A DNA stretch of 64,000 bases from an uncultured Ignavibacteria bacterium. Lineage in GTDB: Bacteria; Zixibacteria; MSB-5A5; RBG-16-43-9. Both the position numbers and the translations under genes were made by a program. The notes beneath the pieces are model-generated. The model was given only the letters and a program-made list of their open reading frames with translations, had not been told where the DNA came from and did no database searches. Position 1 is the stretch's first letter. Each line of letters begins with the position of its first letter. This document shows positions 9,340-58,894 of the stretch, piece by piece. The DNA lies in the NCBI GenBank assembly GCA_964570765.1, contig CAZMZF010000001.1:47626-111625 (forward strand), written 5' to 3'.

Positions 9340-9390
9340 GTAGCGCGAGGCTTTTAGCCTCGCAATGCGACCCTGAAAGGGTCGCGCTAC
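9340..9390. repeat. REP element: GTAGCGCGAGGC-TTTTA-GCCTCGC-AATG-CGACCC-TGAAA-GGGTCGCGCTAC
   Basis: Double-hairpin palindrome with GTAG/CTAC termini, located 22 bp upstream of the RAYT gene. Confidence 0.75.
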
Positions 9391-9412
9391 GATTATAAGA
9401 AATGTAAATTAA

Positions 9413-9892
9413 ATGAAATATAGTTTTCAAAAGAGGATAAGATTAAAGGACTTTTCTTATAAAGGTTTGTGGAGATACTTCGTAACAATTTCGACGTACG
9501 AAGGTAAACGATATTTCGAAAATAATAAGTCTGTAGAGAGTTGTATTATTTATCTTAAAGATATATCGGTTTCATATAACTTCAACGTATTAGCGTATTG
9601 TTTTATGCCTGATCATTTGCATCTTTTGATTGAAGGAAAAGAGGAAGATTCTGATTTTAGGAAGTTTATGTCTATGTTTAAACAGAAGTCAAATTATCAT
9701 TGTAAAAACATCGAAGGAAATCCTCTTTGGCAAAAGGATTATTATGAACATGTTTTAAGAAGAAATGAGGATACTATACAGGTAATAAAGTATATATTAG
9801 ATAATCCGGTAAGAAAAGGGATGGTTAAGGATTTTAGAGATTATCCCTTTCTCGGTTCTTTTGTTTATGATTTAAAAGAGGTATTTTCGTAG
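9413..9892 (+). CDS. REP-associated tyrosine transposase (RAYT, IS200-like HUH Y1)
   Basis: HuH motif MPDHLHLLI and downstream catalytic Tyr region LWQKDYYEHVLR...NPVRKGMV. Same-family REPs flank the gene on both sides. Confidence 0.85.
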   Translation: MKYSFQKRIRLKDFSYKGLWRYFVTISTYEGKRYFENNKSVESCIIYLKDISVSYNFNVLAYCFMPDHLHLLIEGKEEDSDFRKFMSMFKQKSNYHCKNIEGNPLWQKDYYEHVLRRNEDTIQVIKYILDNPVRKGMVKDFRDYPFLGSFVYDLKEVFS

Positions 9893-9938
9893 CGCGAGGC
9901 TTCAGCCTCGCAATGCGATCCTAAAAGGATCGTCCTAC
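9889..9938. repeat. REP element of the same family. Its GTAG supplies the RAYT TAG stop codon
   Basis: GTAGCGCGAGGCTTCAGCCTCGCAATGCGATCCTAAAAGGATCGTCCTAC. Confidence 0.75.
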
Positions 9939-9978
9939 GAAAAGCAATACGAAAGACAAAAATATACAGGAGAACAAG

Positions 9979-11052
9979 ATGGGTCTTTTTGAGATGATGG
10001 AGGAGAAAGGGCATGAGCAGTTGATATTTTGCTACAATCAGCCCACGCATTTAAAAGCCATAATCGCTATCCACGATACTACCCTGGGAAAAGCAGTTGG
10101 AGGATGCAGGCTCTGGAAATATAATACAGAGAAAGAGGCGATTACGGATGCTTTGATTTTGTCTGAAATTATGACTTATCAATCTGCTATCTCGGATTGC
10201 GATACCGGCGGGGGCAAAGTAGTTTTGTGGCATGATTTTGAAGAAGAGCCGGATGAGGCTTATTACCGGGCTTTAGGGAGGTTTATCGAGGGGCTAAAGG
10301 GAAGGATCATTACCTATCCGGATTTAGGCACTGATACTCAGGAGATGAAGTACATTCGAAGAGAGACCGAGCATGTCCTTTTTTATGAGACCTCCTCAGG
10401 TTTGAGAGCGGAAAGCTCAGAGCTTACCGCTTATGGAGTTTACTGGGGGATGAAAGCCTGTGTTAAAGAGCTTTATGGTATATCCTCTTTAGATGGGCTT
10501 ACTGTGGCAATTCAAGGAGTAGGGAGTGTAGGTCGAATACTGGCTGATTATCTCAAGGAAGAAAAAGTAAAGCTTATCGTTACTGATTTGAACTATGATT
10601 CCATCAAAAAAGTTCAGGATAAATATCCGGATACAATTATTGCCAACCCTGAAAATATTTTAACCTGTGAATGCGATGTCTTTTCTCCCTGTGCTTTAGG
10701 TCCAGTATTCAGCAGGCAGAATATAGATAAGCTCCGATGTAAAATCATTGCTGGAGGAGCTTATAATATTTTAGAAGAGGCTTCATTGGCTGAGGAACTA
10801 TTTAAACGAGGGATTTTGTATGCTCCGGACTTTGTGATAAACAGTGGTGAGCTTTTTATGACTGCGGATGCTTTAAAGATATTATCCAAAGATGAAGCTT
10901 TAGCCTCAGCTAAAAAGATCTATGATATAATGGCAAAAGTACTGGCTATATCCAGAAGAGGGAATATCTCCCCTTATAAAGCTGCTTACCAGTTGGCAAA
11001 AGAAAGGATAATAAAAGTAGGGGATATAAAAAATATTTTATGTTGTATCTAA
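9979..11052 (+). CDS. Leucine/valine dehydrogenase (Glu/Leu/Phe/Val dehydrogenase family)
   Basis: 357 aa. IAIHDTTLG...GGCR motif and Rossmann GVGSVG motif. Confidence 0.85.
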   Translation: MGLFEMMEEKGHEQLIFCYNQPTHLKAIIAIHDTTLGKAVGGCRLWKYNTEKEAITDALILSEIMTYQSAISDCDTGGGKVVLWHDFEEEPDEAYYRALGRFIEGLKGRIITYPDLGTDTQEMKYIRRETEHVLFYETSSGLRAESSELTAYGVYWGMKACVKELYGISSLDGLTVAIQGVGSVGRILADYLKEEKVKLIVTDLNYDSIKKVQDKYPDTIIANPENILTCECDVFSPCALGPVFSRQNIDKLRCKIIAGGAYNILEEASLAEELFKRGILYAPDFVINSGELFMTADALKILSKDEALASAKKIYDIMAKVLAISRRGNISPYKAAYQLAKERIIKVGDIKNILCCI

Positions 11053-13352: not shown

Positions 13353-13476
13353 TCTGAAGGAGTCCCCTACGGGACGACTGAAAAATCTTCTTGAGACGGT
13401 TGCAGATTCTTCCCCCGCCAAAGGCGGGGTCAGAATGACAGTAAGGGGTGTTGAAATCTTAAAACCTGAATCTTTT

Positions 13477-19366: not shown

Positions 19367-19867
19367 AGATTTCCCTTGTCAAAAAAGTTCGGTATAATAT
19401 ATTGATTAAGAAGATATTTATCAACAGAAAAGATGAAAAGAAATATCAGATTTTATATTAAACGATAGAATTTAAAATACATAAAAGGGCGACCCGCCGG
19501 GTCGTCCCTACGATCTGTAAACGATGAAAGAACGTTGTAAGGAGAGAGGATAGGGGAGAGGTTTTATTTTGTCGATAAAGGAATTAAGACCAGTAGGGCG
19601 GAAACCTTCAGGTTTCCATATTATTTGAAAATGGAAAGTTGAAATCTCAAGACTTTGTCCGAAATTGGATCCATAGGAACGGTCTTCCGCTACAAAAAAC
19701 AAGAAGAGGGCAGGGGAGAGGTTTTAAAAAATTCTTGCCAAAAATAATTTATATGCTATACTTACAAGTGGAGAAGTAAGTTAGACACCAGAGAGTTTCC
19801 GTCAAGTCAGTCCGCCTGAGGTGGATGACGGGCATATTGAAAAATAAAAAATTGGAAGGAGGTTTTT

Positions 19868-37841: not shown

Positions 37842-38279
37842 AGATTACCCTCGCTTTCTTTTTATTTTCAAAAGGAAAAGTATTATACTAAATAGATATG
37901 GAAAAAGTCAAGATTTTTTGACAGAATATTTTTTTAAAGTTTTAGGGATCCAGTTTTGGAGAAAGCACAGGTGACTTTCTAGGTAGAGACGCATTGCCAT
38001 GCGTCTCTACTTCTTTCGTAAAACTCATCTTGACATGGAAGACGGTTTCTCTCCTACAGGAAAGGGGATAGTTGAAAGCTGTAGGGGTGAAGTTACCTCG
38101 TCCCTACAAAAAATATTTAATTTTAATGTTCTTTGTCCGAGTTTGTCATCAAGACCCAAAATCGGGGATCCATAGGATTGGTATCCTCACCAAGAAGAAA
38201 AAATCGTTGGTCGGGAGACCAACGATTAGCAAAGGGCGTATGGCAATACGCCCCTACGATCTATTCGATATCTGATATT

Positions 38280-45011: not shown

Positions 45012-45815
45012 CTATTTTTTCCTCTTCTCTATCCAGTATCCTATATTCCCCAAGATCACCAAAATTATAATCAGAAGATGAGCTATGGATTGGGCATCCA
45101 TACCTCTTGCGCCCATACCAGGTTGACCCAGCAAAATCTCATATTCTGCAGCTCCTTTGAGTCCATTGACCAGTCCCTGGATCTGTCCGGAATTTAAAAA
45201 AGGATAAAAACTGGTTGCCATAACTGCAGTCGTTAAAACAAACAATTTTTTTTCATATCTTGCCACTGCATAATTTATCCAGGAAAAAGGTATATCCCCG
45301 TCAGTAACTGAGATTATAAGAGCTATCTTTTTATAATCTTTTATCTCTTTAGTCAGTTCCAGATCAAAAGTTGAATTACCAGTATAATCCTCAGGAAAGA
45401 CCTGATGGAAATCCTCTCCCAATCCTAAGATGGTAGCAGTAACCTGTGGTCTGAATCCCAAGAAAACATAATCTTTCCCATAGGTTTTATTATGTTTTAA
45501 AGCGTTTTCCTTTAAGACCTTTTCTCCTAAAGCGGTCCCTTCAGCTAAAAGGGAAAGACCTATAGCTTTCAGATTTTTTGAAAAAGAGTGTTGTAAAATT
45601 GCATTGGCTAAAGGCTGGACCTCTGGAAAAGATGAGGCTTCAAAATCAAAGGAGATTAAAACCACTGAGCTGTCTTCTAAATTATTTATTTTCTCAAATA
45701 CATTTTTGACCTCTGGAGTTACCTTATTCGGCAGGCTTAGTTTAAAAATCAGAGGGAAGATTACCGCTACTGCCATCAGGATGAATATCGTTTTTCGGTT
45801 AAAATTTAGTTTCAT
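45012..45815 (-). CDS. Membrane-anchored protein (N- and C-terminal TM helices), unknown function
   Basis: Hydrophobic N- and C-termini. Confidence 0.5.
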   Translation of the reverse strand: MKLNFNRKTIFILMAVAVIFPLIFKLSLPNKVTPEVKNVFEKINNLEDSSVVLISFDFEASSFPEVQPLANAILQHSFSKNLKAIGLSLLAEGTALGEKVLKENALKHNKTYGKDYVFLGFRPQVTATILGLGEDFHQVFPEDYTGNSTFDLELTKEIKDYKKIALIISVTDGDIPFSWINYAVARYEKKLFVLTTAVMATSFYPFLNSGQIQGLVNGLKGAAEYEILLGQPGMGARGMDAQSIAHLLIIILVILGNIGYWIEKRKK

Positions 45816-46101
45816 ATTCTCTTTTGGTGGAACAGATATCCTGTCACTTCTTATTATCAGACAGGAATGTCTGACCTACCACTTTTTTGGACCCACCTTG
45901 GGGGCAAGGTGGGTCTACCGATTTAAGGATAGAATTCACCGAAGGTGGATTCTGTCCCTCCAACCAGTTTCGTCGGGCGTGAAGCCCGACGCTACGAGCA
46001 TTCACTCTTTCACCATCGGATCAGTCCGCTTGAGGTGGACGACGGACACATAACTCCATATTTTTGCTACAAGCTCCTTGCTACGTGCTACCTGCTTAAA
46101 T

Positions 46102-50400: not shown

Positions 50401-50630
50401 GATTTATGTAGGGGCACGGCGCACCGTGCCCCTACGGATGTCATTGCGACCCCGCCACAGGAGGGGGAAGCAATCTGCTGACTATGTGAAGGTTGCTTCG
50501 TCGTCCCCGAAGGGGGCTCCCCGCAATGACAGGTAAAAGAAAAATATTTTGAAATTTTTCTTGCTTTTTGAAAAGTTATCTATATGTTAGTTAATGGTAG
50601 TATAAAAAACCTAAAACTAAGGAGTGGAAG

Positions 50631-54545: not shown

Positions 54546-55025
54546 ATGCGAGTTGAAGATCAAATAAACAATGACAATGTGACCTTGCCCCGACAGAATT
54601 TATTCTCCATCTTAAAATGGGGATTTTTTTTGACCTTAATACTTTTTTTAATAAATTGCGGGCTGAAAAGACCAAAGGATGAGATTGGTCCCCTTAAGGA
54701 GGTGATAAGCAGGTTTGAGAGAGGGGTTATTAATGAAAACAGAATAGTCCTGGATTCGGTCTATAGCAAAAAAGATATAAACAGGGATTCGCTTATCAGC
54801 TCAGTTCTTCAAGAATTTTCTGCCTTGAAATCGAAAGGATTTTATTCCTTTAAGAGGAGGAAGTTTTCGATAATAGAGAATAAAATAATTGCTACAGTGG
54901 AGCTTTTCATAAGCAGAGAGGATCAGAAATCCGCGAGTGGATCCGTAGGAGAGGAGAAGATATTAGAGGTTTTCTTAGAAAAGAAAAGGGGTGAATGGAA
55001 AATAGTTGGACAGGATATAAAATAA
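54546..55025 (+). CDS. Hypothetical lipoprotein
   Basis: TM/signal region ending in LINCG (lipobox-like). Confidence 0.4.
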   Translation: MRVEDQINNDNVTLPRQNLFSILKWGFFLTLILFLINCGLKRPKDEIGPLKEVISRFERGVINENRIVLDSVYSKKDINRDSLISSVLQEFSALKSKGFYSFKRRKFSIIENKIIATVELFISREDQKSASGSVGEEKILEVFLEKKRGEWKIVGQDIK

Positions 55026-55225
55026 AGAACGTTTAATCCGCCAAAGGCGGACAAAAGTTCAAAGGCTCAAAGGAAGAAAAAATAATAATGGATGAAGAAT
55101 GACGAATGACGGAAAAAATATTGTAGGGGCAACCCCCTGCGGTTGCCCATTATGGGAGCAGGCGCTGGAGCCTGCCCCTACATAAAATATAAAATGTCAA
55201 CACTTATGAATTCAGAGGTCAATAG

Positions 55226-56284
55226 ATGTTAGGTTTGAATGAGATTATCGAAAAAGAAGTTACTAAGGCGATTTCTTTCATCCAGGAAGCTTTGAAGGAA
55301 AAACCTGAGTATATCGAAATTGAGCGGGGTGAGGAGGAGAAAGAGCTATTACTTTTAGATAAAAATTTAGACCAACTTTCCTTTGATAAAATCCCGGAGC
55401 TTAGCTGTGAAAACAAAGTCGCGGCAGTGGATGGTGGGTCTGCTACAGTCCTTAAAACCAGGTCTTTTCTGATCGGAGTTTATCGGGCAGGATATGTAAT
55501 TTTTCAGAAAGGGAAAAGAGTTAAGGAGAAGTTTGTTCCTCTGAGGATGGAGATTCTATCTCTGGAAAACAAAGCAGAGAAATATCTGCAAGCGTATCAA
55601 GAACTGGTAGGTGAGGTGCCGAATGAGGTCCCGGAGTTAGATAAGATTTTAGACCGGTTAAGGCTTTTTGCGGAATGGGGGCTGGTCAAGGGATTAATAA
55701 CTGATTTAGAAAAGAGTGATATGATTTTAGTAGATGGCTCATTAAGGGCAAGCATTGTGCCTCCGTATGAGCTTCTTTTAAAAGTAACAGAAGAAGCCAA
55801 ACAGAAAAATATCCATTTAGTTGGAGTGACCAAGACCTCTACTCTATACTGGGGTAAAAAATCTCCTTTGATTCCGATGGTGGTTAAAAGCTCAGAGAAG
55901 TTCTGTCCAGAATCTAAGTGGTTCTGCCGTTTGTCTGATCTGGATTTAGCTTTGAAAAATTCCAACTGGTTCGGGACGATCTATGTATCCAGGCTTAAAG
56001 CCTCTTCTGATTATGCTTTTAGAGTGGATATAAATCGTCTGGATAATACTGAGCCAGCAAAGATTTTCTCCTGGCTGTCCAATCTTTCCTCTGACCCAGC
56101 ATACTTAGGTTATCCCTATCCTTTAGCTGCAGTGCATAATCGGGCCAGGATTTTAGGAAGTGAGATCGAAGATATAAAATATAGATTGCAGAGCAAGGCT
56201 TTAGAAAAAGGGATTTCATTTGCGGACTGGAACCTTTTGTTCCGGGATTTTCATGAGGTGTTGAATGCGGATTTAAATAAATAA
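55226..56284 (+). CDS. NurA-like nuclease domain protein (tentative)
   Basis: KVAAVDGGSATV matches the NurA N-terminal catalytic Asp motif (..DGS). Size about 350 aa. A HerA-like ATPase gene lies 1 kb downstream. Confidence 0.5.
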   Translation: MLGLNEIIEKEVTKAISFIQEALKEKPEYIEIERGEEEKELLLLDKNLDQLSFDKIPELSCENKVAAVDGGSATVLKTRSFLIGVYRAGYVIFQKGKRVKEKFVPLRMEILSLENKAEKYLQAYQELVGEVPNEVPELDKILDRLRLFAEWGLVKGLITDLEKSDMILVDGSLRASIVPPYELLLKVTEEAKQKNIHLVGVTKTSTLYWGKKSPLIPMVVKSSEKFCPESKWFCRLSDLDLALKNSNWFGTIYVSRLKASSDYAFRVDINRLDNTEPAKIFSWLSNLSSDPAYLGYPYPLAAVHNRARILGSEIEDIKYRLQSKALEKGISFADWNLLFRDFHEVLNADLNK

Positions 56285-56382
56285 AATAAATGACTAATGA
56301 TTAATGATAGATAACGGATAAAAAAAATGGAAAATGAAAGAAAGAAGAAGAGAAATAAAAAGATAATGACGAATAAATAACT

Positions 56383-56443
56383 GTAGGAGCAGGCCCCTGT
56401 GCCGGCCCTGATATTCTGGGCGAACACACAGGTTAGCCCCTAC
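56383..56443. repeat. REP element GTAGGAGCAGGCCCCTG...GCCCCTAC (GTAGGGGC family)
   Basis: Palindrome with GTAG/CTAC termini 18 bp upstream of the RAYT2 start. Confidence 0.6.
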
Positions 56444-56460
56444 AAATACCAGAATAAAAA

Positions 56461-57048
56461 ATGCAACAGAATTCGGAAAAATATCAACGTCGTTCAATCC
56501 GATTAAAGGAATACGATTATTCACAAGCTGGGGCGTATTTTGTAATGATATGCACGCAGAACAATGAATGCGTTTTTGGAGAGGTGATTAATGAAGAGAT
56601 GAGATTGAATAAATATGGGAAAATTGTTAAAGATGAGTGGTTGAGGACAAGGGAGATACGTTCAAATGTGATGTTGGATGAATATATCGTGATGCCAAAT
56701 CATTTTCATGGTATTATACTGATTATTGATGATGTGTTTGTAGGGGCGACCCGCCGGGTCGCCCCTACAGTAAAATCAACCACGTTGAAGTCAAATACCC
56801 TCGGTTCAATTATTGGTCAAATAAAATCCATTGTTACCAAAAATATTCACAAAATGGGATTAAAACATTTTCACTGGCAAAGAAATTATTATGAACATGT
56901 TATTAGGAATGAAGATAAGTTGAACAAAATCAGACAATATATTCAGAACAAACCTCTAAGCTGGCATCTGGATAGAGAAAATCCGGAAAGGGTAGGAATA
57001 AATAGGTTAGAAGATGAGATTTTTAATTTGAAGAAGACAATTAAATAA
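56461..57048 (+). CDS. REP-associated tyrosine transposase (RAYT / IS200-like Y1), second copy with a REP palindrome embedded in the coding sequence
   Basis: HuH motif MPNHFHGIIL. Catalytic Tyr region WQRNYYEHVIRNE...YIQNKP. The palindrome GTAGGGGCGACCCGCCGGGTCGCCCCTAC at 56740-56768 lies in-frame between the two motifs. Confidence 0.75.
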   Translation: MQQNSEKYQRRSIRLKEYDYSQAGAYFVMICTQNNECVFGEVINEEMRLNKYGKIVKDEWLRTREIRSNVMLDEYIVMPNHFHGIILIIDDVFVGATRRVAPTVKSTTLKSNTLGSIIGQIKSIVTKNIHKMGLKHFHWQRNYYEHVIRNEDKLNKIRQYIQNKPLSWHLDRENPERVGINRLEDEIFNLKKTIK

Positions 57049-57328
57049 ATAGCGGATGACGAATATCGAACGACGAATAATGGATAAAAGAAGAAGGGAT
57101 ATAGAAGAAGGAATATGAAAATGAAGAAAAATGGTAGATATTGAAGATTGATTAAAAGATTGTAAGGTCAATCTCCCGTGCCTGTCCCGGAAAGGTGCTA
57201 TCATTGCGAGGAGTCTCCCCGCCTTTGGCGGGGGACGACGAAGCAAGCACCTTACTCAATCAGTGTAAACAGATTGCTTCGCACCGCAGGGGACTCGCAA
57301 TGACACTATTATAACCTGAGGAGAAAAA

Positions 57329-58894
57329 ATGGATTACAAAGGCAGAATAATCGGAAAAAGTATAACCGAGATTTATTTCCGGACTTTTTATGAGGAGGAA
57401 CTTCATTTAGGGGATATCCTGGTGGCACAGGACGAGGAGAAAAATCTTCCTTTTTATTTAAGAGTAGTGGAGGTCAGTTACGGAGTTGAAGCAACTGATC
57501 CGGACTGGGCTTCTCGCACTGCGGGGAATATGATGCTTTTAGACCGGCAGACCGAGTCTTATCAGTTTCAGGAAAAAGAGAGAAGGCTTTTCAAAATTGG
57601 AAAATGTGTCCCCTTAGGTTATATTAAAGATAATCTCTTCAGAAAACCAAAAACTATACCGGAACATTTCTCCAGAGTGCGCACTCCAAATAATGAAGAT
57701 TTTCTTTTTCTGAAAAAATATACGGGTGATATAGACGTTGGTAAACTGCGCTCAGGTGAAGATGTGATTGATTTCAAAATCGGAGTCTCCGGAGAGCTGT
57801 TTCCTTATCATATCGGGATATTCGCTACCACCGGTATGGGGAAAAGTAATTTGATGAAGGTTTTAGCCAGTTCAGTTTTAGAATCGGGCAAATACGGGAT
57901 GCTGATTTTGGACCCGCACGGAGAATATTATGATGGGGGAGGTGATCCGAAACATAAGGGGTTGGTTGATCATCCTTTAGCAAAAGAATGGCTGAGAGTC
58001 TATTCTTCCAGAGATTTAAAAGGTCCTTATAATAAACTCAAGATAAGCTCCAAGGAGATAGAGATCAAGGATGTTCGGCAGATTTACGGGTTCACCCAGG
58101 CACAGGTGGAAGCGCTTTATGCCTTAGCGCATCATTTTGGCAGGGATTGGCTGGATGGAGTAAAGAGAAGTTCTATTTCAGAGCTGGCGATGAGTTTGTC
58201 ATCTGGCGGTGCTTTTTTTGAATCAACGATAGGAGTCATCCAGAGGAGAGCAGAGCAGATTTTGAGACTTCCCTTTGTGCATGGTGACCCTAATGTCTCT
58301 ATTACTGTTAATGTGATTAATGATTTATCCTCAGGTAAAGTGGTTTTGATAGATACTTCCAATATGTCTGAACAGGAGGAGCTTTTGATCTCTGCGGTTC
58401 TGGCACGGGCTGTTTTCTCCAGAAATAAAGAGGCATATCAGGATCCTGCCAAGTTCAAAAAGATCTTACCTACTCTGATCGTGATGGAAGAAGCCCAGAG
58501 AGTTTTATCTCAAAAGGGCGAAGCGGATATAAATATCTTTGCTCAAGTCTCAAGAGAAGGAAGGAAGTTCAAAACCGGGCTTTGTGCCATTACCCAACAG
58601 CCAAAACTAATCGATGAGGAGCTTTTGTCTCAGTTCAATACCCTTTTCATCTTAGGTCTGGCAGATGAACGGGACCGGAATATCCTGAAAAGCTCTGCCA
58701 AGCAGGATATTTCTGATCTGGGAACAGAGATTCAGATGCTTGAAGCAGGCGAAGCTTTGATCACCTCTCCCCAGGCTCCTTTTGCCATCCCGGTTAAGGT
58801 CTATCTTTTTGAAGAATGGCTGAAGGAAAGAAAAGAAAGCTTGAAAGAAAAAAATTCTGTGGATGTAAAGGTGGATGAGGGATTTTTTAAATAG
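57329..58894 (+). CDS. HerA-like ATPase (FtsK/HerA superfamily, DUF87)
   Basis: Walker A GIFATTGMGKSNL, Walker B LIVMEEAQR. About 520 aa. Confidence 0.7.
   Translation: MDYKGRIIGKSITEIYFRTFYEEELHLGDILVAQDEEKNLPFYLRVVEVSYGVEATDPDWASRTAGNMMLLDRQTESYQFQEKERRLFKIGKCVPLGYIKDNLFRKPKTIPEHFSRVRTPNNEDFLFLKKYTGDIDVGKLRSGEDVIDFKIGVSGELFPYHIGIFATTGMGKSNLMKVLASSVLESGKYGMLILDPHGEYYDGGGDPKHKGLVDHPLAKEWLRVYSSRDLKGPYNKLKISSKEIEIKDVRQIYGFTQAQVEALYALAHHFGRDWLDGVKRSSISELAMSLSSGGAFFESTIGVIQRRAEQILRLPFVHGDPNVSITVNVINDLSSGKVVLIDTSNMSEQEELLISAVLARAVFSRNKEAYQDPAKFKKILPTLIVMEEAQRVLSQKGEADINIFAQVSREGRKFKTGLCAITQQPKLIDEELLSQFNTLFILGLADERDRNILKSSAKQDISDLGTEIQMLEAGEALITSPQAPFAIPVKVYLFEEWLKERKESLKEKNSVDVKVDEGFFK

What the first reader, a model, noticed from the sequence alone, without database searches (positions are those of the whole stretch)
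56383..57048. Second RAYT carries a REP palindrome inside its own coding sequence
RAYT2 at 56461-57048 has the HuH motif PNHFHG and the catalytic WQRNYYEHV region. Between them lies the 29-bp perfect palindrome GTAGGGGCGACCCGCCGGGTCGCCCCTAC at 56740-56768, in frame, encoding VGATRRVAPTV. Related GTAGGGGC REPs sit 18 bp upstream (56383-56443), and at 19485-19520 and 55125-55190. Either the transposase tolerates an insertion of its own substrate in a loop, or this is a recently inactivated copy. In either case it records REP mobility into a coding region.
Basis: seen in the sequence. Interest (0 to 1): 0.55.

Follow-up and report, generated by a model that had tools for sequence, protein, structure and literature searches.

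The report
REP hairpin inside a RAYT gene

Summary
At 56740-56768 the ORF 56461-57048 (195 aa) contains GTAGGGGCGACCC-GCC-GGGTCGCCCCTAC. This is a 13-bp stem, or 15 bp with the flanking T/A, and it is the longest perfect stem in the 64-kb window. It is read in frame as VGATRRVAPT.

The protein is a REP-associated tyrosine transposase (TnpAREP/RAYT). Its motifs match subclass 2.4 of Quentin et al. 2018 (Bertels group 4). [quoted passage not shown]

It is not a recent or inactivating insertion:
- In 55 of 76 homologous genes from many phyla the same loop holds a perfect GC-rich hairpin.
- The hairpin occurs in both stop-free reading frames and is far longer than synonymous recoding allows.
- Syntenic Zixibacteria-like orthologues at 72-74% nucleotide identity keep all ten hairpin codons bar the loop centre, while the intergenic REP beside the gene changes or disappears.
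- The exact 29-mer is also a cosmopolitan dispersed repeat in metagenomes.

AlphaFold puts the encoded peptide in a disordered loop.

Two corrections. WQRNYYEH is the GTAG-recognition motif, not the catalytic site; the catalytic tyrosine is Y160. This copy has K164 at a conserved metal-ligand Asn.

Verdict: a new member of a known kind, low to moderate interest.

The parts
56461..57048 (+). RAYT2: 195-aa TnpAREP/RAYT gene, subclass 2.4-like (Bertels group 4)
   Evidence: ORF. About 8000 homologues, several named RayT or transposase. NCBIfam REP_Tyr_transpos 47.3 bits, or 59.4 bits without the loop; both are below the cut-off of 80. AF2 model pLDDT 80, with best PDB fold match 4er8_A, E. coli TnpAREP bound to a REP, E 1.5e-6.
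56740..56768 (.). In-frame 'double-foot' GTAG REP: GTAGGGGCGACCC-GCC-GGGTCGCCCCTAC. It extends to 15-bp arms at 56739-56769 and encodes VGATRRVAPT (aa 94-103) on either strand.
   Evidence: Sequence. Longest perfect stem in the window. DNA fold -18 kcal/mol. All ten codons identical in the two syntenic orthologues and nine of ten in L203. The exact 29-mer is dispersed in at least 120 metagenome contigs.
56695..56712 (+). HuH motif PNHFHG (aa 79-84), on the strand immediately before the insert
   Evidence: strand E81-88 in the model
56734..56787 (+). Low-confidence loop aa 92-109 (VFVGATRRVAPTVKSTTLK) holding the REP-encoded peptide. It corresponds to the beta3/alphaC variable insertion of subclass 2.4.
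   Evidence: pLDDT <50 for residues 92-109, between strand 81-88 and helix 114-131. Published description of the variable region.
56875..56907 (+). WQRNYYEHVIR (aa 139-149): GTAG-guide recognition motif. W139, Q140, E145, H146 and R149 correspond to E. coli W94, Q95, E100, H101 and R104.
   Evidence: Alignment to 4er8; residue roles from PMC6006769
56938..56955 (+). Y motif YIQNKP (aa 160-165). Y160 is the catalytic Tyr (E. coli Y115). K164 replaces the near-invariant Asn (E. coli metal ligand N119).
56383..56443 (.). Upstream flanking double-foot REP-like element (GTAGGAGC...GCCCCTAC), ending 17 nt before the ATG
   Evidence: At the same site the 93%-identical orthologue L205 has a different 31-nt REP, and L201 has none.
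55123..55181 (.). Second double-foot GTAGGGGC...GCCCCTAC element, upstream of the NurA gene and about 1.3 kb from RAYT2
19487..19511 (-). Intergenic single-foot REP with the same inner stem and loop as the in-gene copy. On the minus strand it reads GTAGGGACGACCCGGCGGGTCGCCC.
50408..50435 (.). Intergenic double-foot REP of the same foot family, with a different inner stem (GTAGGGGCACGG-CGCA-CCGTGCCCCTAC)
38232..38257 (-). Intergenic single-foot REP of the same foot family (minus strand GTAGGGGCGTATTGCCATACGCCC)

Best explanation
The 29-nt hairpin is a genuine 'double-foot' GTAG REP embedded in frame in the beta3/alphaC loop of a subclass 2.4 (group 4) TnpAREP/RAYT gene. This is a family-wide trait that has already been described.

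Shown here:
- The protein has the HuH motif, the GTAG-recognition motif and the catalytic Tyr of TnpAREP, and it folds like E. coli TnpAREP.
- The REP-encoded decapeptide lies in a predicted disordered loop.
- Most homologues, across many phyla, carry a perfect GC-rich GTAG...CTAC hairpin at the same place. The GTAG foot is seen in both reading frames that do not read TAG as a stop.
- In this lineage the insert predates the split from syntenic orthologues at 72% nucleotide identity. It is kept codon for codon while the neighbouring intergenic REP turns over.

Inferred:
- RAYTs bind REP hairpins in single-stranded DNA, read the GTAG foot through the WQ..EH..R motif, and cut and rejoin nearby.
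- Acting preferentially near their own gene, they seed REPs around it (the REPtron) and occasionally inside it.
- Only copies that land in the permissive loop, in a stop-free frame, and that keep the downstream frame survive.
- Because the element is nearly its own reverse complement, either orientation gives the same peptide.
- The copy then persists because the hairpin itself is constrained, either by purifying selection on the DNA structure or by arm-to-arm self-correction. The peptide is not what is constrained.
For: Identity of the protein:
- Motif positions and best fold match 4er8_A.
- The partial NCBIfam RAYT match becomes continuous when aa 92-109 are removed.

Loop: pLDDT <50 for residues 92-109.

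Family-wide hairpin:
- 59 of 76 genes have a perfect stem of at least 9 bp, median 11, against 5.5 after synonymous recoding. In 48 of 76 genes at most 1% of recodings reach the observed stem.
- 55 of 76 genes hold at least one GC-rich hairpin of 9 bp or more, 62 hairpins in all. Of these, 34 are double-foot.
- The GT[AG]G foot is in frame 0 in 30 cases, frame 1 in 16 and frame 2 in none.
- Six genes hold 2-3 hairpins.

Age and stability:
- NurA-RAYT synteny in L201 and L205.
- Hairpin codons identical in 10/10, 10/10 and 9/10 cases, against same-codon rates elsewhere of 0.91, 0.53 and 0.61.
- The upstream intergenic REP is replaced or absent in the orthologues, and local REPs there have other inner stems.

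REP nature:
- GTAG foot, and other copies in the window.
- The exact 29-mer occurs at 128 metagenome sites, of which only 10 full and 7 partial lie in RAYT-like ORFs.

Literature:
- REP/GTAG recognition and cleavage (PMC3479197; PMC8266576).
Against: - No biochemical evidence that this protein binds or cuts this hairpin.
- K164 replaces a conserved metal-ligand Asn, so this copy may be catalytically weakened.
- The score stays below the NCBIfam cut-off, and Pfam Y1_Tnp finds nothing.
- Subclass assignment rests on motif signature and features, not on the authors' own profiles.
- Only one other copy with the same inner stem was seen in 64 kb. Flanks of most homologous loci hold few or no identical copies. 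The link between 'its own substrate' and this particular stem is therefore inferred.
- Cis-preference as the origin of the in-gene copy is inference.
- The cause of the synonymous-site conservation (selection, palindrome self-correction or replacement from a REP pool) is not resolved.
Confidence: 0.85

Rival explanations
1. The in-gene hairpin is a functional cis element kept by selection, not a merely tolerated passenger. One version: the RAYT binds the hairpin in its own gene or transcript and limits its own expression or cuts its own gene. Another version: the gene carries a 'seed' REP so that transposase and substrate are inherited and transferred together.
For: - Hairpin codons are fully conserved in orthologues whose other synonymous sites are about half changed.
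- The adjacent intergenic REP turns over, and local REP pools have other inner stems.
- The hairpin is present in 55-59 of 76 genes across phyla, far beyond what the peptides require.
- Identical 29-mers occur in genes whose proteins are only 44-59% identical.
Against: - Some family members lack any hairpin: L013, L034, L037, L064, L073 and L074.
- Hairpin type only partly follows the protein clusters.
- 5'-only and 3'-only feet are equally common (12 versus 11), so there is no sign of a strand-specific (RNA-level) role.
- There is no terminator-like tail and no Rfam family.
- Perfect palindromes can be kept perfect by template-switch correction without selection (established mutational mechanism; this point is inference).
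- The published view is that the insert has little impact on the protein.
Confidence: 0.25
2. The hairpin is a recent REP insertion that has inactivated, or is about to inactivate, this RAYT copy.
For: - The window copy has K164 at the conserved metal-ligand Asn, unlike its closest relatives.
- A truncated relative, P0008, shows that copies of this lineage do decay.
Against: - The ORF is full length at 195 aa; the subclass median is 194.
- The same insert with the same codons is in syntenic orthologues at 93%, 74% and 71% protein identity, and these have N164.
- The insert is the family norm.
- It sits in a disordered loop.
- The N164K change is unrelated to the REP.
Confidence: 0.04
3. VGATRRVAPT is an ancestral protein motif under amino-acid selection, and the DNA palindrome is a by-product.
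For: The decapeptide is the consensus of the closest 43 homologues. A101, P102 and T103 are more than 90% conserved there.
Against: - Synonymous recoding of the same peptides gives stems of about 5.5 bp against 11 observed.
- The hairpin is read in two different frames, giving unrelated peptides of the types VGATRRVAPT, GRGTLQRAPT/RRGGSRTAPT and VGAYGHTPLQ.
- Variant peptides correspond to compensated stem changes.
- The same 29-mer is mostly found outside RAYT genes.
Confidence: 0.03

Closest known systems
TnpAREP subclass 2.4 with in-gene REP insertions (Quentin, Siguier, Chandler, Fichant 2018, BMC Genomics 19:475, PMC6006769); equals RAYT group 4 of Bertels et al. 2017 (PMC5581495)
   Same: - Motif signature NH[IFV]H / WQ / YIxNNP. 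Here it reads NHFH, WQ, YIQNKP.
- Length of about 194 aa (195 here).
- Variable insertion between beta3 and alphaC.
[quoted passage not shown]
- A 'double-foot' REP with 5' GT[AG]G and 3' C[TC]AC, and three G-C pairs at the stem base.
- GTAG REPs flanking the gene.
- Scattered distribution over many phyla.
   Different: - This copy comes from an uncultured, probably Zixibacteria-like, genome not covered by that study.
- It has Lys instead of the conserved Asn in the Y motif.
- The present analysis adds points not stated in the paper: conservation at synonymous sites, use of both stop-free frames, stability of the in-gene copy against turnover of the flanking REP, and the cosmopolitan spread of the exact 29-mer.
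E. coli TnpAREP (RayT/YafM) and its REPtron; structure 4ER8 (Messing et al. 2012, PMC3479197); subclass 2.2 / group 2
   Same: - HuH/Y1 fold (best PDB match).
- Conserved W, Q, E, H and R residues that read the GTAG foot.
- Catalytic Tyr on the following helix.
- REPs next to the gene.
   Different: - E. coli REPs are imperfect palindromes with a bulge and a single foot, and they lie only outside the gene.
- There is no beta3/alphaC insertion.
- E. coli has a C-terminal tail with E161.
- Sequence identity is only about 19%.
Intragenic REPs in unrelated genes (Di Nocera et al. 2013, PMC3733652)
   Same: GTAG-tagged palindromes found entirely inside ORFs, translated, and thought to be tolerated in linkers or loops.
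   Different: Those are sporadic, species-specific insertions in genes such as uvrA, dnaE2 and recB. Here the host gene is the cognate transposase, and the insert is the rule across the subfamily.
IS200/IS605 TnpA with subterminal hairpins (IS608, ISDra2)
   Same: Same Y1 HuH fold (ranks 2-30). The same logic applies: a hairpin in single-stranded DNA plus a 5' guide tetranucleotide.
   Different: In those elements the hairpins flank a mobile element that moves as a unit, and none lies inside the transposase coding sequence. The Y motif is Y---Q, not Y---NP.

Membership tests
TnpAREP / RAYT (class 2 Y1 HuH endonucleases) | HuH motif providing two metal ligands | tested here: met
   PNHFHG aa 79-84. 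It aligns with PEHMHC of 4er8.
TnpAREP / RAYT (class 2 Y1 HuH endonucleases) | Catalytic Tyr in a Y---NP motif on helix alphaD | tested here: met
   Y160 aligns with E. coli Y115, and W139 + 21 = Y160 as W94 + 21 = Y115. Y160 is invariant in alignment A1.
TnpAREP / RAYT (class 2 Y1 HuH endonucleases) | Asn at Tyr+4 (E. coli N119) as a metal ligand | tested here: not met
   The window has K164. At least 90% of 43 homologues have N, including the nearest relatives P0002, P0011 and P0003. The effect on activity is unknown.
TnpAREP / RAYT (class 2 Y1 HuH endonucleases) | GTAG-guide recognition residues (E. coli W94, Q95, E100, H101, R104) | tested here: met
   W139, Q140, E145, H146 and R149 are in register.
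TnpAREP / RAYT (class 2 Y1 HuH endonucleases) | Fold of E. coli TnpAREP | tested here: met
   Foldseek best PDB match 4er8_A: E 1.5e-6, TM 0.51/0.60, 149 columns. Model pLDDT 80.
TnpAREP / RAYT (class 2 Y1 HuH endonucleases) | Curated profile score (NCBIfam NF047646 cut-off 80 bits; Pfam PF01797 cut-off 23 bits) | tested here: not met
   47.3 bits in two stretches, or 59.4 bits in one stretch after deleting aa 92-109. No Pfam hit. RAYT1 of the same window passes both. The profiles appear tuned to other subclasses.
TnpAREP / RAYT (class 2 Y1 HuH endonucleases) | GT[AG]G-footed REPs within about 1 kb of the gene (REPtron) | tested here: met
   56383-56443, ending 17 nt upstream of the ATG, plus the in-gene copy. 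55123-55181 lies about 1.3 kb upstream.
TnpAREP / RAYT (class 2 Y1 HuH endonucleases) | Mn2+-dependent cleavage and strand transfer of cognate single-stranded REP | not testable with these tools
   Needs the in vitro CST assay of PMC8266576.
TnpAREP subclass 2.4 (Quentin 2018) / RAYT group 4 (Bertels 2017) | Motif signature NH[IFV]H, WQ, YIxNNP | tested here: met
   NHFH, WQ, YIQNKP. There is one deviation, N to K at the fifth position. The family consensus in A1 is YIxNNP.
TnpAREP subclass 2.4 (Quentin 2018) / RAYT group 4 (Bertels 2017) | Insertion of variable length and sequence between beta3 and alphaC | tested here: met
   The distance between the HuH and WQ motifs ranges from 56 to 108 aa among 76 homologues. 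In the window, the aa 92-109 loop has pLDDT <50.
TnpAREP subclass 2.4 (Quentin 2018) / RAYT group 4 (Bertels 2017) | [quoted passage not shown] | tested here: met
   56740-56768, between aa 84 and aa 160. A hairpin is present in 55-59 of 76 homologues.
TnpAREP subclass 2.4 (Quentin 2018) / RAYT group 4 (Bertels 2017) | Long canonical or 'double-foot' REPs with three G-C pairs at the stem base | tested here: met
   GTAG-GGG...CCC-CTAC. 34 of 62 in-gene hairpins in homologues are double-foot.
TnpAREP subclass 2.4 (Quentin 2018) / RAYT group 4 (Bertels 2017) | Assignment by the authors' MCL clusters or HMM profiles; 8-aa insertion at the end of alphaB | not tested
GTAG-type REP (Nunvar 2010; Di Nocera 2013) | 20-40 nt GC-rich palindrome with a GT[AG]G tetranucleotide at its foot | tested here: met
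   29 nt, 13-bp stem, GTAG at both ends.
GTAG-type REP (Nunvar 2010; Di Nocera 2013) | Multiple dispersed copies in the genome | tested here: inconclusive
   Only 64 kb of this genome was seen. It holds one further copy with the same stem (19487-19511) and four further sites with the GTAGGGGC/GCCCCTAC foot. The exact 29-mer occurs at 111 or more non-RAYT sites in metagenome contigs.

The most novel reading that the evidence does not exclude
The REP inside subclass 2.4 RAYT genes is not a tolerated passenger. It is a selected nucleic-acid element of the gene. It could be a self-recognition site through which the enzyme limits or rearranges its own gene. Or it could be a built-in 'seed' substrate that keeps transposase and REP family together through vertical and horizontal inheritance. 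Three observations would fit this reading: the hairpin is kept codon for codon while flanking REPs turn over, it is kept in whichever frame is open, and identical 29-mers sit in genes whose proteins are less than 60% identical.
Probability: 0.25. Interest if true: 0.55.

Novelty: new member of a known kind. Interest (0 to 1): 0.27.

Why it matters
How REPs spread, and why RAYTs are retained as single-copy, housekeeping-like genes, is still unsettled. A RAYT gene that carries its own recognition hairpin is a natural test case for whether these enzymes act on their own locus. That situation has been on record since 2018, so this locus adds a member from an uncultured lineage rather than a new principle.

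The modest new points could justify a focused experiment in which the hairpin is recoded without changing the protein. Those points are:
- conservation of the hairpin at synonymous sites;
- use of both stop-free reading frames;
- stability of the in-gene copy against turnover of the neighbouring REP;
- occurrence of the exact 29-mer in contigs of 39-72% GC.

For annotation, the case shows why curated RAYT profiles under-score this subclass: the insert splits the match.

Tried and rejected
- Pfam scan of RAYT2 at E up to 10: nothing. NCBIfam gives only a sub-threshold match.
- Rfam scan of 55000-57400 at E up to 1: only a chance-level psbNH match, 16.8 bits against a gathering score of 45.
- Terminator scan: the hairpin is not followed by a T-run on either strand. 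An intrinsic-terminator reading was dropped.
- Other coding-sequence REPs in the window. Hairpins at 45888-45917 and 45971-45991 fall in a 149-aa open frame. That frame is spurious, because the real gene is 45012-45815 on the minus strand, so both are intergenic. The hairpins at 10407 and 25597 lack a GTAG foot and are weak.
- Copies of each homologue's in-gene hairpin arm in its own ±5 kb flanks: mostly 0-5 hits, close to shuffle expectation. This was too little sequence to say whether the in-gene type is the dominant REP of each genome.
- Rough average-linkage clustering of core proteins against hairpin type: only partial agreement. It does not settle vertical inheritance against replacement.
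- Cluster look-up for an organism name: none is attached to the protein. The Zixibacteria attribution rests on the names of the closest homologues.
- Literature searches for any later treatment of in-gene REPs in RAYTs found only the 2018 paper.
Full report
**1. The observation**

The sequence at 56740-56768 is GTAGGGGCGACCCGCCGGGTCGCCCCTAC. It lies inside the only long ORF of the region, 56461-57048, 195 aa. It is read in frame as V94-G-A-T-R-R-V-A-P-T103.

- It is a 13-bp stem with loop GCC. With the flanking T and A the inverted repeat is 15 + 1 + 15 nt, at 56739-56769. 'Perfect palindrome' is therefore slightly loose.
- It is the longest perfect stem in the 64-kb window. Twenty shuffles of the window reach only 8-11 bp.
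- Local G+C rises to 0.52-0.57 in a gene of about 0.3.
- The octamer GTAGGGGC occurs 8 times against 0.89 expected.
Two more were found at 50408-50435 and 38232-38257.
- The copy at 19487-19511 shares the inner stem and loop of the in-gene copy.

**2. What the gene is**

The protein has about 8000 detectable relatives. Several are named 'REP element-mobilizing transposase RayT', and the closest named ones come from candidate division Zixibacteria.

- Pfam finds nothing.
- NCBIfam REP_Tyr_transpos matches at 47.3 bits in two pieces, below the cut-off of 80. Deleting residues 92-109 turns this into one continuous 59.4-bit match. The insert interrupts an otherwise ordinary RAYT core.
- An AlphaFold2 model built from 43 homologues has mean pLDDT 80. 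Its best PDB match is 4er8_A, E. coli TnpAREP bound to a REP hairpin, followed by IS608, ISDra2 and IS200 transposases.
- A profile alignment to 4er8, together with the published residue roles, assigns the motifs as follows.

| Window residues | E. coli equivalent | Role |
|---|---|---|
| H81, H83 | H59, H61 | HuH metal ligands |
| W139, Q140, E145, H146, R149 | W94, Q95, E100, H101, R104 | read the GTAG foot |
| Y160 | Y115 | catalytic tyrosine |

The 'catalytic WQRNYYEHV region' of the finding is therefore the GTAG-recognition motif. Position 164 corresponds to the metal ligand N119. It is Asn in at least 90% of 43 homologues and in the nearest relatives, but Lys in the window copy.

**3. 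The insert is a family trait, not a local accident**

In an alignment of 43 homologues, VGATRRVAPT is the consensus. I then fetched 80 loci from species-representative genomes, found by protein patterns only. They span Planctomycetota, Chloroflexota, Armatimonadia, Zixibacteria, Brocadia, Nitrospirota, Cyanobacteria, Bacteroidota, Patescibacteria and others. Between the HuH and WQ motifs:

- 59 of 76 genes hold a perfect stem of at least 9 bp, median 11, maximum 18. The termini are mostly GTAGGGGC...GCCCCTAC and the inner stems vary.
- Recoding each peptide with synonymous codons at the gene's own usage gives stems of only about 5.5 bp. In 48 of 76 genes at most 1% of recodings reach the observed stem.
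- The GT[AG]G foot starts in codon position 1 in 30 cases and position 2 in 16. It never starts in position 3, which would read TAG as a stop.
- The two frames give unrelated peptides, of the types VGATRRVAPT, GRGTLQRAPT/RRGGSRTAPT and VGAYGHTPLQ.
- 34 of 62 hairpins carry both feet. Six genes carry two or three hairpins.
- A few members have none: L013, L034, L037, L064, L073 and L074.

The constraint is on the DNA, not on the peptide.

**4. Age in this lineage**

The closest relatives were located on their contigs.

- L205 (93% protein identity) and L201 (74%) have the gene in the same place, directly after the NurA gene.
- L203 (71%) is in another context.
- Codon-aligned, the ten hairpin codons are identical in 10/10, 10/10 and 9/10 cases. 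The single difference is the central loop base.
- Among other codons for identical residues, only 91%, 53% and 61% are the same codon.
- The intergenic REP just upstream of the gene behaves differently. It is a 61-nt double-foot element in the window, a different 31-nt REP (GTAGGGGCAGAC-ctgcgt-GTCTGCCCCTAC) at the same site in L205, and absent in L201. Other REPs near these orthologues share the feet but have different inner stems.

The in-gene copy is thus old and stable while its neighbours turn over. 'Recently inactivated copy' is not supported.

**5. It is a real dispersed repeat**

Of 128 sites, 10 lie in complete RAYT-like frames between HuH and WQ, and 7 more in partial ones. The rest are elsewhere. 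The contigs range from 39 to 72% G+C. The in-gene element is therefore identical to a cosmopolitan double-foot REP.

**6. Where it sits in the protein**

Residues 92-109 have pLDDT below 50. They lie between the HuH strand (81-88) and the next helix (114-131). This is the beta3/alphaC position, which the published homology model of a subclass 2.4 protein places at the periphery, away from the DNA-binding and catalytic sites.

**7. Comparison with what is known**

Quentin, Siguier, Chandler and Fichant (2018, PMC6006769) define TnpAREP subclass 2.4, which equals Bertels group 4. Its properties are:

- motifs NH[IFV]H, WQ and YIxNNP;
- median length 194 aa;
- a beta3/alphaC insertion of variable length and sequence;
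- abundance in Cyanobacteria and Bacteroidetes, with scattered presence in other phyla.

[quoted passage not shown] They add that the subclass has 'double foot' REPs with 5' GT[AG]G and 3' C[TC]AC.

The window gene meets each of these features apart from the N-to-K change in the Y motif. Intragenic REPs in unrelated genes were listed earlier by Di Nocera et al. 2013. Searches found no later paper on the in-gene REPs. The finding is therefore a new member of a described kind.

**8. How it most likely works**

Established: RAYTs bind REP hairpins in single-stranded DNA, read the GTAG foot, and cut and rejoin at a nearby CT or CA with Mn2+.

Inferred:
- The enzyme seeds REPs around its own gene, and now and then inside it.
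- Only copies in the permissive loop, in one of the two stop-free frames, with the downstream frame kept, survive.
- Because the element is almost its own reverse complement, both orientations give the same peptide.

Why the hairpin then stays perfect is open. It could be selection on the structure, arm-to-arm template-switch correction, or replacement from the REP pool. The orthologue data argue against frequent replacement in this lineage. The loose fit between hairpin type and protein clusters leaves replacement possible over longer times. No strand bias, terminator tail or Rfam family points to an RNA-level role.

**9. Verdict**

It is a REP tolerated in a loop of its own transposase, but it is ancient and family-wide, not a recent or inactivating event.
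- The trait has been published, so interest is low to moderate.
- The residual open question is whether the in-gene REP is selected. That question carries the remaining novelty.

Noticed in passing
window 9340-9940: RAYT1 (9413-9892, 159 aa; PDHLH, WQKDYYEH, YILDNP) is a textbook REPtron. Head-to-head REP dimers GTAGCGCGAGGC...GCGCTAC lie on both sides (9340-9391 and 9889-9940). The gene's TAG stop codon is supplied by the GTAG foot of the downstream REP. It passes NCBIfam REP_Tyr_transpos (112.9 bits) and Pfam Y1_Tnp, and it has no in-gene hairpin. The same genome therefore holds two RAYT subclasses, each with its own REP family.
   Followed up: partly
window 56950-56952 (codon AAA, K164): RAYT2 has Lys where at least 90% of relatives have Asn, including the 93%-identical P0002. 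This position equals E. coli N119, a metal ligand of the active site. It is a single-base change from AAC/AAT. The copy may be catalytically weakened, independently of the REP insert.
   Followed up: partly
window 55226-58894; L201 2900-7363; L205 2518-5379: RAYT2 sits between a NurA gene (55226-56284) and a HerA/DUF87 ATPase gene (57329-58894). The NurA-RAYT junction is syntenic in relatives, but the space after the RAYT varies. It holds two unknown genes (207 and 164 aa) before HerA in L201, a SIR2_2-domain gene in L205, and only repeats in the window. It looks like a variable slot inside a NurA-HerA pair.
   Followed up: no
window 56383-56443 versus L205 3623-3652: At the identical site between NurA and the RAYT, with the same flanking bases, the window has a 61-nt double-foot element and the 93%-identical orthologue has a 31-nt REP with a different interior. 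This is a direct example of REP replacement or internal expansion at a fixed site.
   Followed up: partly
window 50440-50530 and 57201-57304: Two elements of about 90-105 nt with CATTGCGA...TCGCAATG-type inverted ends fold into long composite hairpins. One lies right after the 50408 REP and the other between RAYT2 and HerA. An inner CCCCGCCTTTGGCGGGG-type hairpin recurs near 13411, 29145, 44946 and 47920. They are possibly a MITE-like family distinct from the GTAG REPs.
   Followed up: partly
window 20318, 29222, 34967, 37983, 38741, 45888, 45971, 61130: At least five further GTAG/CTAC-footed hairpin families with other stems are scattered in intergenic DNA, for example GTAGAGACGCAT..., GTAGCGTCAGGG... 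and GTAGACCCACCTTG.... This is an unusually REP-rich, AT-rich (40% G+C) genome.
   Followed up: no
protein P0063 (alignment): A 273-aa relative carries a tandem duplication of the 5' half of the gene. The duplication ends exactly at the REP-encoded peptide and then restarts with the normal N-terminus. This is a rearrangement with a breakpoint at the in-gene REP.
   Followed up: no
protein P0008: A close relative (87% identity over 70% of the query) is frameshifted after residue about 136 and truncated at 147 aa. It still keeps the VGATRRVAPT segment. Copies of this lineage do decay in some genomes.
   Followed up: no
metagenome loci L081, L096, L121, L122: In some high-GC contigs the exact 29-mer is embedded in arrays of short GGTTTCGGG/GAAACTCG-like repeats, with several copies per contig. 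It is a different genomic setting for the same REP.
   Followed up: no
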